DNA from: a virus
Taxonomy: Duplodnaviria > Caudoviricetes
Strand: one strand, 5' to 3'
IMG/VR virus record: IMGVR_UViG_3300048672_000970
Coordinates: 32,001 to 96,000 of that record
DNA: 64,000 nucleotides
Shown here: positions 10,676 through 12,891 of the stretch, piece by piece
Position numbering within the stretch: position 1 is the stretch's first letter
Layout: each line of letters opens with the position of its first letter
Notes under the pieces: generated by a model
The model's input: only the letters and a program-made list of their open reading frames with translations
Told to the model about the DNA's origin: nothing
The model's database searches: none
Program-made: the position numbers and the translations under genes

Positions 10676-10942
10676 TCATCGGTCTTCTGGTTCAACCCAC
10701 ATCTGTTCGGCAGAATAGGTTGCTTGCAGAATCTTTTGCAAATCCATCGTACCAAGCGACCGTTCAAATTCAGAAGACGGATAAGCAATCACCCGTGCAA
10801 CATTCTTGAATCGTTGCAGCTCTTTGTACAGTTGAAGAATATCTGCTTTAGCGTCTTCAAACGCGTACTGAATGGCTGCAGGGCTTTGAGTTACCATTGC
10901 CCGAGGGTCGCAGTTAGTCCATTGGTCAATAGTGCGTTGCAT
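10676..10942 (-). CDS. hypothetical protein
   Basis: MQRTIDQW..., abuts the upstream stop. Confidence 0.6.
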   Translation of the reverse strand: MQRTIDQWTNCDPRAMVTQSPAAIQYAFEDAKADILQLYKELQRFKNVARVIAYPSSEFERSLGTMDLQKILQATYSAEQMWVEPEDR

Positions 10943-10943
10943 T

Positions 10944-11429
10944 TTAACGACCCCCGATAATGATTCGTGCCCGAGATTCCAGCCCGTAAAGCTGATGATG
11001 CTCTTGCTTTTGAGCATGCTTCGCCCGCGCCTTTGCCTCATCGGCAAATTCATACCGGCGAGCCGTTTGAAAAGTTTGAATGATCTTGCCAACGTCAGAC
11101 AGCACACTTGCACGCGTTGCCAGGATTTCTCCTTCCACGTCCACGTCAATCTTGCTGAAAGAGAAAATGGACGGCTGCGTGTGCTCCAGAGTTTCAACCA
11201 GCACATGATCCATGGCTTGTCGAATATTCTTCACCAGCACTTCATCCTTTTGGCCGGTGGCAAACTGTTCGCGCATCAGCTTTGCCAGCGCAGCATACGC
11301 CTTCGATGCTGCGGGCGTCAGCACGCCGGGGATCGGGAGATTCTTGCGATTCCACGCCTGTTGCTGGCGGGTCAGGAAAGGTTGTTGTGCGGCAATCTTC
11401 TGGCTCGGTTCAACGATGTGCTTTTGCAT
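10944..11429 (-). CDS. hypothetical protein immediately downstream of the CRISPR array
   Basis: AAGGA SD before MQKHIV; own early promoter (TTGTCT-16-TAAAAT); no Cas motif recognised. Confidence 0.65.
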   Translation of the reverse strand: MQKHIVEPSQKIAAQQPFLTRQQQAWNRKNLPIPGVLTPAASKAYAALAKLMREQFATGQKDEVLVKNIRQAMDHVLVETLEHTQPSIFSFSKIDVDVEGEILATRASVLSDVGKIIQTFQTARRYEFADEAKARAKHAQKQEHHQLYGLESRARIIIGGR

Positions 11430-11525
11430 GATGCTTCCTTTCAGGTGGTGTTGCGATGGAATGAATTTTAACGGATTTGACGAAAGAGACAATCAGAAAG
11501 TTGTATCAGGATGTAACCAGATTTT

Positions 11526-12164
11526 ATGTTAATCCGCACAAGTGGCGGCGAGGGACTCACGTAGCTTGAGCATCAAAGACGCGAGCCTTTTAAGCCGCAC
11601 GTATGGCGGCGAGGTCAGCAGAGTATCACCGCATTGCTGAAATCTGCTCTTTTAAGCCGCACGTATGGCGGCGAGGAACTCATCTAACCTGACGCTCATC
11701 GCAGGGCTTCTTTTAAGCCGCACGTATGGCGGCGAGGCTGCTCGGTTTGAGTGCTGATGCAAAAGCTGTTCTTTTAAGCCGCACGTATGGCGGCGAGGGG
11801 ATTTTCTCAGTCAGCGGCAGTCACATCAGTTCTTTTAAGCCGCACGTATGGCGGCGAGGTTTGCAATCCGGCCAGCGGAGTTGAGTGAGATACTTTTAAG
11901 CCGCACGTATGGCGGCGAGGCCAGTCGTTTTCAACGGCGGAAGATTCTTGATTCTTTTAAGCCGCACGTATGGCGGCGAGGATGCGGTCAACTGAAAATT
12001 CTTCTTTCTCAGTTCTTTTAAGCCGCACGTATGGCGGCGAGGGTTGTTTGACAGAATGACTGAATTAGTCGTCAACTTTTAAGCCGCACGTATGGCGGCG
12101 AGGCGCACTCGTGATAGTTCCTGCAGCGATTTCAGCCTTTTAAGCCGCACGTATGGCGGCGAGG
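11526..12164 (-). CRISPR. type I-F-like CRISPR array, 11 repeats (10 identical + 1 degenerate), 10 spacers of 33 nt (one 34)
   Basis: 28-nt repeat CCTCGCCGCCATACGTGCGGCTTAAAAG (minus strand); plus-strand starts 11587, 11649, 11710, 11771, 11832, 11893, 11954, 12015, 12076, 12137; degenerate copy at 11526; all spacers unique. Confidence 0.97.
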
Positions 12165-12320
12165 TAGAGCTTTTCAGAAAAACATTAATTAAATCAATAA
12201 CTTACATCATTAACTTAAAGTAACCCTTTCTCAAAAGTTACCGTTTCTCACTGTCAAAAAGATGATATAAATCAATGACTTACCTCACTTTCTTCAAGTG
12301 ACTGAAAAATAAAGGGGGTC
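12165..12320 (-). promoter_or_regulatory. CRISPR leader with two IHF sites and inverted repeat (I-F type)
   Basis: AT-rich; WATCAANNNNTTR exact matches at 12192-12204 and 12270-12282; ACCCTTT (12223) / AAAGGGGGT (12311) inverted repeat. Confidence 0.85.
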
Positions 12321-12339
12321 ATTTGGCTGGACTATCTCC

Positions 12340-12753
12340 TTATCGGATGACTTCCAGCGAGAACGGAAGCGAGCGGAACCGCAACACTTTGCCCGCATCG
12401 GCCTCCGTCACGCCCACCGGGAAACGCTTCGACCGGCGACCCTTGATGGTCGGGTCATGCACCCACAGGCCGCCCTTTTGGCGCAGGGTCGCTTCAAATT
12501 CATAACCCTGCTTGGCAGCATCGCGTTCATTCCGGCGACGGATTTCCTCATTTCGAGCCTGATTTGCCCGTTCTTCCGCAGCAGCCCTTGCGGTACGGTG
12601 CTCTGCAAGAGCCTTTTCAGAACGGGCGTTAGACGCCGCCCATTCAGCGTACAGAGCTTGCGCTTCAGCACTTTGCGGGTGGAGCAGCTTAACACCATTC
12701 GGCAGAGTGGTGCATCCGAACATTTCATGATCAGCTTGGCGTGCGTCAGACAT
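12340..12753 (-). CDS. hypothetical protein
   Basis: GGAG SD, lies between tRNA-Lys and the CRISPR leader. Confidence 0.65.
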   Translation of the reverse strand: MSDARQADHEMFGCTTLPNGVKLLHPQSAEAQALYAEWAASNARSEKALAEHRTARAAAEERANQARNEEIRRRNERDAAKQGYEFEATLRQKGGLWVHDPTIKGRRSKRFPVGVTEADAGKVLRFRSLPFSLEVIR

Positions 12754-12770: not shown

Positions 12771-12846
12771 TGGTGGGTTGTGCCGGCTACGATCCGGCGA
12801 CCTACTGATTAAAAGTCAGTTGCTCTACCTACTGAGCTAACAACCC
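12771..12846 (-). tRNA. tRNA-Lys(UUU) with atypical T-loop AUCGUAG
   Basis: GGGTTGT acceptor, GCTC/GAGC D stem, ACTGA-CTTTTAA-TCAGT, GCCGG T stem, encoded CCA. Confidence 0.92.
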
Positions 12847-12863: not shown

Positions 12864-12891
12864 ATTATATACGATTTCAAAGCCGCGTCAA
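12864..12891 (-). promoter_or_regulatory. sigma70-type early promoter
   Basis: TTGACG-16-TATAAT upstream of tRNA-Lys, ORF and CRISPR leader. Confidence 0.7.

What the first reader, a model, noticed from the sequence alone, without database searches (positions are those of the whole stretch)
12165..12320. Complete bacterial-style I-F leader retained in a phage
Two exact IHF consensus sites lie 28-40 and 106-118 bp from the first repeat, interleaved with an ACCCTTT/AAAGGG inverted repeat. This IHF-IR-IHF-IR layout is described for I-F leaders used by Cas1-Cas2/3. The degenerate repeat is at the far end, fixing polarity. The array therefore appears able to acquire spacers using host IHF and host adaptation proteins.
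Basis: partly seen in the sequence, partly recalled or inferred. Interest (0 to 1): 0.6.

Follow-up and report, generated by a model that had tools for sequence, protein, structure and literature searches.

The report
Active I-F-like CRISPR leader in phage
A giant phage carries a CRISPR array without cas genes whose upstream "leader" keeps the protein-bending sites that bacteria use to insert new spacers. Sibling phages share no spacers, and one sibling spacer matches this phage, so the array looks like a working, borrowed immune memory used in phage-versus-phage conflict.

Summary
Two exact IHF consensus sites lie 28-40 and 106-118 bp from the first repeat. A CCCTTT/AAAGGG inverted repeat interleaves with them, and the degenerate repeat sits at the far end of an 11-repeat array in a T4-like jumbo phage contig.

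New evidence makes the leader look functional:
- The proximal IHF site is within 1 bp, and in the same orientation, as in 45 bacterial I-F leaders.
- In a relative whose flanks are about 80% identical, three leader blocks (distal arm, distal IHF site, proximal arm) are 83/83 identical, while the linkers are about half changed.
- Three sibling haplotypes share no spacer.
- One sibling spacer matches this phage 32/32.

"Complete bacterial-style I-F leader served by host proteins" is only partly supported:
- The repeat starts CC, not the GT that P. aeruginosa Cas1-2/3 needs.
- Spacers are 33 nt, not 32.
- The distal IHF site is flipped and 21 bp further out.
- The inverted repeat alone is at chance level.
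- No bacterial array with this repeat and no cas gene in 200 kb were found.

Verdict: an active leader of a divergent I-F-like, Cas-less phage array; the integrase is unknown. First-reader notes of this scan already flagged the same array.

The parts
12165..12339 (-). CRISPR leader: the non-coding stretch between the stop of the 137-aa gene and the first repeat. The part conserved in relatives reaches 12327.
   Evidence: The two top nhmmer hits of a bacterial I-F leader profile in the whole 200-kb contig fall here.
12192..12204 (+). Proximal IHF consensus site (exact WATCAANNNNTTR). It points away from the array and lies at offset -40..-28.
   Evidence: In 11 bacterial I-F leaders a site with at most 1 mismatch has the same orientation at -41..-29 or -42..-30. 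It is kept in the L009/L139 sibling despite a change in the N positions.
12212..12242 (-). Conserved block C (31 nt), holding the proximal inverted-repeat arm (12223-12229) and a weak -35-like hexamer.
   Evidence: 100% identical in L142, whose flanking genes are 78-84% identical. The arm centre at -62.5 matches the proximal arms of bacterial leaders at -60 to -66.
12266..12294 (-). Conserved block B (29 nt), holding the distal IHF consensus site (12270-12282, offset -118..-106).
   Evidence: The orientation is reversed and the site lies 21 bp further out than the bacterial distal site at -97..-85.
12305..12327 (-). Conserved block A (23 nt), holding the distal inverted-repeat arm (AAAGGG on the + strand, 12311-12316).
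   Evidence: 100% identical in L142. One G-to-T change inside the arm occurs in the L009/L139 haplotype.
12178..12302 (+). Two copies of a 47-nt module (12178-12224 and 12256-12302; A-rich tract plus IHF site), 78 bp apart.
   Evidence: family D2, 77% identity. Each copy aligns to the 'box - A-tract - distal IHF' module of bacterial I-F leaders (E = 0.018 and 0.18).
12137..12164 (-). First (leader-proximal) repeat. It is 28 nt, starts CC, has a hairpin at nt 5-21 with a bulged U16, and has a tail CTTAAAAG if cut as in P. aeruginosa.
11526..12164 (-). CRISPR array: ten identical repeats, a degenerate terminal repeat (11526-11553) and ten spacers of 33-34 nt. It is read on the minus strand, like the flanking genes.
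12206..12234 (-). Weak sigma-70-like promoter match (9 of 12) between the two IHF sites.
   Evidence: The -10 part varies among the three haplotypes, so support is poor.

Best explanation
Window 12165-12339 is the working leader of a Cas-less CRISPR array of a divergent I-F-like kind, carried by an uncultivated T4-like jumbo phage.

Proposed mechanism:
1. A heterodimer of the host's IHF binds each of the two consensus sites. This is inferred. No IHF/HU gene is in the 200 kb held.
2. The proximal bend brings the leader-repeat junction to an integrase. The distal U-turn brings together the two conserved blocks that carry the CCCTTT/AAAGGG arms, as in the solved P. aeruginosa I-F integration complex. 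This is inferred by analogy.
3. A Cas1-Cas2/3-type integrase supplied in trans inserts 33-bp spacers at the junction and copies the first repeat. The integrase most likely comes from the host and less likely from the unsequenced 44% of the phage. Spacer turnover is shown; the enzyme is unknown.
4. The array is transcribed on the minus strand with its neighbours. The repeat hairpin is cut by a Cas6f-type enzyme. The crRNAs arm a host Cascade against competing sibling phages. One sibling-to-this-phage match is shown; the rest is inferred.
For: 1. It lies in a phage. There is a baseplate wedge protein (E = 1.8e-251), endolysin, ligase, helicase and six tRNAs. The record is a 200-kb virus contig.
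2. The repeat is of the I-F family. It is 28 nt with a hairpin at nt 5-21 plus a 7-8-nt tail, and 21/28 identical to bacterial I-F repeats.
3. The proximal IHF site is exact, at -40..-28 and reversed. In bacterial I-F leaders it is at -41..-29, reversed.
4. A profile of 45 bacterial I-F leaders finds the two leader modules as its best two hits in the 200 kb.
5. Footprint: against L142, blocks of 23, 29 and 31 nt are 83/83 identical, while the linkers are about 50% identical and the flanking genes 78-84%. With 83.5% background identity, the probability of 83/83 is about 3e-7.
6. Turnover: three haplotypes (window; L009/L139/L141/L144; L142/L145) have 10, at least 6 and at least 1 spacers. None is shared. 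They have the same leader, the same leader-end repeat and a related trailer.
7. All ten window repeats and the four leader-side L009 repeats are identical. Trailer-end repeats carry loop variants. This fits repeat copying at the leader end.
8. L009 spacer 3 matches this phage at G000:C1:5211-5242, 32 of 32 (E = 2.5e-13). No window spacer hits its own 200 kb.
9. Precedent for use in trans: an isolated I-F array 1.3 Mb from cas adapts in P. aeruginosa (PMC13142298).
Against: - The repeat begins CC. In P. aeruginosa, GT-to-AA at repeat positions 1-2 abolishes integration. However, a bona fide I-F array next to cas6f in an Orbaceae genome also starts CC.
- 13 of 14 complete window and L009 spacers are 33 nt, while 94.7% of 2404 bacterial I-F spacers are 32 nt. 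The integrase ruler therefore differs from canonical I-F.
- The distal IHF site is inverted and shifted.
- The 6-bp inverted repeat is at chance level on its own, and one arm is mutated in one haplotype.
- No array with this repeat was found in 185,579 species genomes or 241 million metagenome records, apart from sibling phage contigs. None was found within 3 mismatches in 802 sampled Proteobacteria.
- Three samples of the L009 haplotype show the same leader-end spacers, so no polymorphism was seen within a haplotype.
- IHF binding, transcription and processing are untested.
Confidence: 0.6

Rival explanations
1. The integrase and effector are the phage's own. The missing 44% or so of the genome would encode a divergent I-F-like cas operon, as in Vibrio phage ICP1. 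The leader would then serve that system and borrow only IHF from the host.
For: The repeat (CC start, CTTAAAAG tail, bulged stem) and the 33-nt spacers match no bacterial array found. The only other carriers of the repeat core in the collections searched are sibling phage contigs. CheckV completeness is 56%.
Against: No Cas1, Cas2, Cas6f or Cas7f profile hit occurs in the 200 kb. BLASTP with 2213 ORFs flanking about 80 bacterial I-F arrays gave no Cas hit. Any cas genes would lie more than 43 kb from the array on one side or more than 156 kb on the other. In known phage systems cas genes adjoin the arrays. [quoted passage not shown]
Confidence: 0.17
2. The conserved leader blocks and IHF sites serve transcription only, as an IHF-dependent promoter or UP-like element. 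Spacer content would change by recombination or cassette exchange between arrays, not by leader-directed integration.
For: A weak -35/-10 match lies in block C. IHF commonly modulates promoters (general knowledge). The haplotypes differ in all spacers, with no nested, shared trailer-end spacers. Medvedeva 2019 suggests recombination for leaderless phage mini-arrays.
Against: The proximal IHF site sits within 1 bp of the position used for integration in bacterial I-F leaders. The -10 region varies among haplotypes, while the blocks 50-160 bp upstream of the repeat are invariant. All leader-side repeats are identical and trailer-side ones are degenerate. No donor array with this repeat is known. 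A consensus promoter upstream of tRNA-Lys could already drive the locus.
Confidence: 0.13
3. The array is mainly a decoy. Its repeat RNAs would soak up host Cas6f or Cascade (an RNA anti-CRISPR), and the spacers would be irrelevant.
For: Phage-borne repeat units acting as RNA anti-CRISPRs have been described (own knowledge, not checked here). The repeat folds into an I-F-like hairpin. Most spacers have no known target.
Against: There are ten spacers of fixed length with complete turnover among siblings, a conserved integration-type leader, and one perfect 32-nt match to a sibling phage. A decoy needs none of these.
Confidence: 0.05

Closest known systems
Type I-F CRISPR leader of Pseudomonas aeruginosa PA14 and relatives (two IHF sites plus two inverted repeats, folded by IHF for Cas1-Cas2/3; Santiago-Frangos et al., bioRxiv 10.1101/2023.05.26.542337; PMC12661925)
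   Same: The order of motifs outward from the repeat is the same: IHF, arm, IHF, arm, within about 150-165 bp. The proximal IHF site matches bacterial I-F leaders in place and orientation to 1 bp. The proximal arm is at about -62. The repeat is 28 nt with an I-F-type hairpin.
   Different: The distal IHF site is inverted and at -118..-106 instead of -97..-85. The distal arm is about 16 bp further out. The arm sequence is CCCTTT/AAAGGG rather than the TTTTNACC/GGTNAAAA seen in most bacterial leaders here. The repeat starts CC, not GT. Spacers are 33 nt. No cas genes are nearby, and the leader sits in a phage.
Mini-CRISPR arrays of the archaeal viruses SPV1 and SPV2 (Medvedeva et al. 2019, PMC6858448)
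   Same: A virus-borne array without cas genes, preceded by a leader. The locus is the same in sibling viruses but the spacers differ. A sibling's spacer targets the other virus.
   Different: Those arrays are archaeal, with 1-2 spacers and leaders and repeats clearly like the host's. Here there are 10 spacers, a bacterial IHF-type leader, and no matching host array known.
CRISPR arrays of huge phages that lack acquisition or interference genes (Al-Shayeb et al. 2020, PMC7162821)
   Same: A jumbo phage with a compact array, no Cas1, Cas2 or Cas4, and spacers that can hit other phages. Use of host Cas proteins is proposed.
   Different: That work relied on repeat similarity to host arrays and did not analyse leaders. 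Here the leader motifs and their conservation are the evidence, and similarity to a host repeat is missing.
Isolated CRISPR3 array of P. aeruginosa ATCC 10145 (PMC13142298)
   Same: An I-F array far from cas genes with an intact leader, shown to acquire spacers in trans.
   Different: It is chromosomal, with a canonical repeat and a leader nearly identical to that of the cas-adjacent array.
I-F array next to cas6f in Orbaceae bacterium ac157xtp (CP133583.1, locus L104)
   Same: It is the only bacterial array found whose repeat also starts CCTCGCCGCC, after a leader ending CTCTA. It has a CCCTTT/AAAGGG-core inverted repeat flanking the distal IHF site.
   Different: It has a canonical CTTAGAAA tail and 32-nt spacers. 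Its distal IHF site is forward at -97..-85, and it has no exact proximal IHF site. Its source (an Orbaceae genome) differs from that of the phage contigs.
Vibrio phage ICP1 type I-F system (Seed et al. 2013, cited in PMC7162821; PMC9040626)
   Same: A lytic phage with I-F-type arrays that acquire spacers.
   Different: ICP1 carries its own full cas operon beside the arrays. None is present in the 200 kb held here.

Membership tests
Type I-F CRISPR leader (IHF/IR architecture) | Two IHF binding sites in the leader | tested here: met
   Exact consensus sites at 12192-12204 and 12270-12282. No consensus position is changed in the siblings. Binding itself was not tested.
Type I-F CRISPR leader (IHF/IR architecture) | Proximal IHF site at the bacterial position and orientation (about -41..-29, reversed) | tested here: met
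   The phage site is at -40..-28, reversed. Eleven of 45 bacterial leaders have a site with at most 1 mismatch, each at -41..-29 or -42..-30.
Type I-F CRISPR leader (IHF/IR architecture) | Distal IHF site at the bacterial position and orientation (about -97..-85, forward) | tested here: not met
   The phage site is at -118..-106, reversed. A forward 1-mismatch site at -103..-91 is not conserved in L142.
Type I-F CRISPR leader (IHF/IR architecture) | Two inverted-repeat motifs flanking the distal IHF bend | tested here: inconclusive
   The CCCTTT/AAAGGG arms are centred at -149.5 and -62.5. The chance rate is 12-17%, and one arm is mutated in L009. Both arms nevertheless lie in blocks that are 100% conserved in L142.
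Type I-F CRISPR leader (IHF/IR architecture) | [quoted passage not shown] | tested here: not met
   The repeat starts CC. The requirement comes from bioRxiv 10.1101/2023.05.26.542337. An Orbaceae I-F array beside cas6f is also CC.
Type I-F CRISPR leader (IHF/IR architecture) | 28-nt repeat with I-F hairpin and 8-nt handle; 32-nt spacers | tested here: not met
   The repeat length and hairpin are met. But the tail is CTTAAAAG, not CTTAGAAA, and spacers are 33 nt in 13 of 14 complete window and L009 spacers, against a 32-nt mode in 79 of 80 bacterial array loci.
Type I-F CRISPR leader (IHF/IR architecture) | A Cas1-Cas2/3 integrase available in the same cell | not testable with these tools
   None is in the 200 kb. 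The host is unknown, and no bacterial array with this repeat was found.
Virus-borne Cas-less CRISPR arrays used in conflicts between viruses | The array lies in a virus genome without cas genes | tested here: met
   Phage genes surround it. There are no Cas1, Cas2, Cas6f or Cas7f profile hits and no BLASTP hits to ORFs that flank I-F arrays. Only about 56% of the genome is held.
Virus-borne Cas-less CRISPR arrays used in conflicts between viruses | Same locus in sibling viruses but different spacers | tested here: met
   Three haplotypes share no spacer.
Virus-borne Cas-less CRISPR arrays used in conflicts between viruses | Spacers match sibling viruses, not the carrier | tested here: met
   L009 spacer 3 matches G000:C1:5211-5242, 32 of 32. 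The window spacers have no hit in their own 200 kb. This is only one informative spacer of about 17.
Virus-borne Cas-less CRISPR arrays used in conflicts between viruses | Repeat and leader resemble those of the host | tested here: inconclusive
   The best bacterial repeat identity is 21/28. Leader modules resemble bacterial I-F leaders only weakly. The host is not identified.
RNA anti-CRISPR / solitary repeat units | Repeat units that act without functional, changing spacers | tested here: not met
   There are ten fixed-length spacers with complete turnover and a sibling-targeting spacer.

The most novel reading that the evidence does not exclude
The array and leader may define an undescribed I-F-derived lineage. 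Its marks are a CC-start repeat, a bulged hairpin, a 33-bp ruler, a flipped distal IHF site and a U-turn about 7 bp longer per arm. So far it is seen only in phages. In this reading a lytic jumbo phage runs its own adaptive memory against sibling phages. It would recruit host IHF plus an integrase that is either phage-encoded or a host enzyme able to accept non-GT repeats.
Probability: 0.3. Interest if true: 0.75.

Novelty: new variant of a known kind. Interest (0 to 1): 0.55.

Why it matters
Cas-less arrays in phages are usually assumed to borrow host Cas proteins. Whether they can be loaded with new spacers, and how, is rarely addressed. A published comparison even stated that phage mini-arrays lack leaders (Medvedeva 2019).

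Here a bacteriophage array has a leader whose IHF and arm blocks are under strong purifying selection. Its spacers have been wholly replaced among siblings, and one sibling spacer matches this phage. That gives a concrete, testable case of spacer acquisition onto a phage genome and of CRISPR-based exclusion between sibling phages.

The departures from the I-F rules (CC instead of GT, 33-bp spacers, inverted distal IHF site) also offer a natural experiment. It can show which leader and repeat features an I-F-type integrase really needs.

Tried and rejected
I could therefore make no read-level test of leader-end polymorphism, and read laying was not used.
- No close DNA relative of the locus is in the INPHARED phage collection.
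- The 21-nt repeat core gave 0 hits in IMG/VR and 0 in GTDB genomes. It gave 1 hit in JGI metagenomes, the sibling L009.
- A degenerate two-repeat scan of GTDB returned only canonical I-F arrays.
- The phage repeat with up to 3 mismatches gave 0 matches in 802 sampled Proteobacteria.
- Spacer targets: there is no convincing hit in INPHARED. One 51-nt, 82% match to two Pseudomonas phages spans a spacer plus a repeat, so I take it as chance. The newest window and L009 spacers have no exact hit in IMG/VR. The protospacer itself is not in other IMG/VR contigs.
- 2404 spacers from the fetched bacterial I-F arrays do not hit the phage, so they give no host clue.
- Single-protein searches for syntenic relatives in IMG/VR failed. 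Six loci found through the methyltransferase partner share no synteny and have no array.
- Rfam has no family matching the repeat or the leader.
- The promoter-like box of this phage's non-coding cassettes is absent from the leader.
- I first placed the bacterial proximal IHF site wrongly, by eye, at about -28..-16. The count corrected it to -41..-29.
- I considered merging two spacers into one IUPAC pattern for collection scans.

Full report
**What is there**

The window is part of a 200,363-bp virus record that CheckV rates about 56% complete. It encodes a T4-type baseplate wedge protein (E = 1.8e-251), an endolysin-like peptidase, DNA ligase, helicases, methyltransferases and six tRNAs. It is therefore a jumbo phage. 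Earlier notes of this scan call it a freshwater phage; I did not verify the habitat.

At 11526-12164 lies a CRISPR array with ten identical 28-nt repeats, one degenerate terminal repeat (11526-11553) and ten spacers of 33 nt (one of 34). It is the only such array in the contig.

Read on the minus strand, the repeat has the I-F build. A hairpin spans nt 5-21 with a bulged U16 (-9.3 kcal/mol), followed by a 7-8-nt tail. The repeat starts CC and ends CTTAAAAG. The nearest of about 80 bacterial I-F repeats fetched is only 21/28 identical. The flanking genes are all on the minus strand.

**The observation**

Both IHF consensus sites are exact and lie at the stated offsets: 12192-12204 and 12270-12282, or 28-40 and 106-118 bp from the repeat. 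The window has 12 such sites against 5.3 expected. Two in 156 bp is unlikely by chance, about 1e-4 to 4e-4. However, the two belong to a duplicated 47-nt module 78 bp apart, so they are not independent.

The inverted-repeat arms are at 12223-12229 and 12311-12316. Taken alone they mean little. A symmetric 6-mer inverted repeat appears in 12-17% of random or shuffled windows.

**Comparison with real I-F leaders**

From the genome scan I extracted 45 bacterial I-F leaders, anchored on their first repeat. They show a sharp layout:
- a proximal IHF-like site in reverse orientation at -41..-29 (11 leaders with at most 1 mismatch, each at -41..-29 or -42..-30);
- a distal site in forward orientation at about -97..-85 (about 30 leaders).

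Inverted-repeat arms are centred near -60 to -66 and -127 to -144.

The phage's proximal site (-40..-28, reverse) fits this to 1 bp, and its proximal arm (centre -62.5) also fits. The distal site does not fit. It is reversed and lies at -118..-106, and the distal arm is at -149.5. Using the bend centre of the IHF-DNA crystal structure (about 1 bp 5' of the W; my own knowledge), the distal bend would sit near -105 instead of -98. The two arms would stay roughly symmetric about it, at 44.5 and 42.5 bp. This geometry is inference only.

An nhmmer profile of the 45 leaders, run over the whole 200-kb contig, gives its two best hits on the two leader modules (E = 0.018 and 0.18). Both align to the 'box - A-tract - distal IHF' module.

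The one bacterial array with a CC-start repeat sits directly after cas6f in an Orbaceae genome (L104; Pfam Csy4, E = 1.4e-12). It shares the CTCTA|CCTCGCCGCC junction and a CCCTTT/AAAGGG-core inverted repeat around its distal IHF site.

**Relatives of the phage locus**

The repeat core occurs in one JGI contig, L009. Exact-protein look-ups added five more contigs:
- L139 and L141, which are the same haplotype as L009;
- L142, a more distant lineage from sample SRR32481707;
- L144 and L145, which hold the trailer ends.

Window versus L009:
- The coding flanks are about 96% identical and the leader is 151/156 identical.
- No substitution falls on an IHF consensus position.
- One substitution falls inside the distal arm.
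- All spacers are different.

Window versus L142:
- The neighbouring genes are 78-84% identical at the DNA level.
- The 137-aa gene is absent, so tRNA-Lys abuts the leader.
- Three blocks of 23, 29 and 31 nt are identical at 83 of 83 positions, while the linkers between them are about half changed.
- The blocks are exactly the distal arm region (12305-12327), the distal IHF site with its flank (12266-12294) and the proximal arm region (12212-12242).
- At 83.5% background identity, the chance of 83/83 is about 3e-7.
- The contig ends before the proximal site.

**Spacer dynamics**

The three haplotypes hold 10, at least 6 and at least 1 spacers, with none in common. This includes the trailer-most spacers. 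The leader-side repeats are identical, and the trailer is 96% (L144) or 74% (L145) identical to the window.

Repeats at the trailer end carry loop variants, and the last one is degenerate. This fits repeat copying at the leader end and confirms polarity.

Three samples of the L009 haplotype show the same leader-end spacers. I therefore saw turnover between lineages but no polymorphism within a lineage.

L009 spacer 3 matches this phage at G000:C1:5211-5242 with 32 of 32 bases (E = 2.5e-13). The match lies in a small gene of unknown function next to phoH. The only mismatch is at crRNA-sense position 1, where the target has C. C is the one base absent from that position in all 14 spacers. The flank is not the canonical I-F CC PAM, so this phage may be an escape variant; that is speculation. 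No window spacer matches its own 200 kb.

**Who supplies the proteins**

The 200 kb gave no match to any of the following:
- Cas1, Cas2, Cas6f or Cas7f profiles;
- IHF/HU;
- any Cas protein by BLASTP with 2213 ORFs flanking bacterial I-F arrays; the only matches were topoisomerase, ribonucleotide reductase and weak unexamined matches to other ORFs.

Three facts argue against a canonical host I-F integrase:
- The repeat lacks the 5'-GT whose mutation abolishes integration by P. aeruginosa Cas1-2/3.
- Spacers are 33 nt, whereas 94.7% of 2404 bacterial I-F spacers are 32 nt and 79 of 80 array loci have a mode of 32.
- No bacterial array with this repeat turned up.

The Orbaceae case shows that I-F systems with CC-start repeats exist. 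The cognate integrase is therefore probably a divergent I-F-type enzyme of an unsampled host, or less likely of the phage itself.

**Comparison with what is known**

The I-F leader with two IHF sites and two inverted repeats, folded over about 150 bp, is described in bioRxiv 10.1101/2023.05.26.542337 and PMC12661925. The phage leader has the same order of elements but fails three family features that I tested: the GT start, the placement of the distal site, and 32-nt spacers. I therefore call it I-F-like, not a member.

Several precedents bear on the reading:
- Archaeal viruses SPV1 and SPV2 carry Cas-less arrays with leaders, different spacers in siblings and mutual targeting. The same paper notes that phage mini-arrays lack leaders (PMC6858448).
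- Huge phages often carry compact arrays without acquisition genes and may use host Cas proteins (PMC7162821).
- An I-F array far from cas can adapt in trans (PMC13142298).

The present case is thus a new variant of a known kind.

**Verdict**

The stretch is a selected and evidently used CRISPR leader of I-F design, but it is not a complete canonical one, and the source of the adaptation proteins is open.

First-reader notes of this scan on the same array (e1-5382404, e1-5382410) agree on the Cas-less, divergent I-F-like reading.

Noticed in passing
G000:C1:5210-5242 (outside the window; locus L138:2211-2243): This is the protospacer for spacer 3 of the sibling phage L009: 32 of 32 identical, with a mismatch only at crRNA-sense position 1 and a flank that is not CC. 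It lies in a 160-aa gene of unknown function beside a PhoH-like gene. The crRNA would be antisense to that mRNA.
   Followed up: partly
window 12340-12753 (minus strand): A 137-aa Ala/Arg-rich orphan gene lies between tRNA-Lys and the leader. It has no Pfam or PHROG family and no relatives beyond its own cluster. It is absent in the L142 lineage, where the tRNA abuts the leader, so it is a recent insertion or deletion next to the leader.
   Followed up: partly
window 12771-12846 and 12864-12891 (minus strand): tRNA-Lys(UUU) is preceded by a near-consensus sigma-70 promoter (11 of 12; a perfect TTGACA-17-TATAAT in L142). It could drive read-through into the leader and array.
   Followed up: no
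L104:354-741 (Orbaceae bacterium ac157xtp, CP133583.1): A bona fide I-F array directly after cas6f has repeats that start CC instead of GT. This is an exception to the reported 5'-GT rule. Two facing IHF consensus sites lie about 150 bp beyond its last repeat (L104:900-950).
   Followed up: partly
window 12049-12099: A 51-nt, 82% match (E = 4e-4) to Pseudomonas phages Milchi and Astolliot spans part of spacer 9 and part of the next repeat. It is probably chance.
   Followed up: no
window 10676-11492 (minus strand): Two overlapping reading frames lie downstream of the array: 10944-11429, with an AGGAAG ribosome-binding site, and 10676-11206, whose first 50 or so codons look non-coding. The start of the second gene is probably mis-set by the mechanical ORF call.
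   Followed up: no
L145:1-100 (Logan SRR32481707): In the third haplotype the trailer lacks a recognisable terminal degenerate repeat. A GC-rich 15-nt stretch stands in its place.
   Followed up: no
window, whole: The IHF consensus WATCAANNNNTTR is about twice as frequent as expected: 12 matches against 5.3, with 1 of 100 shuffles reaching 12.
   Followed up: no
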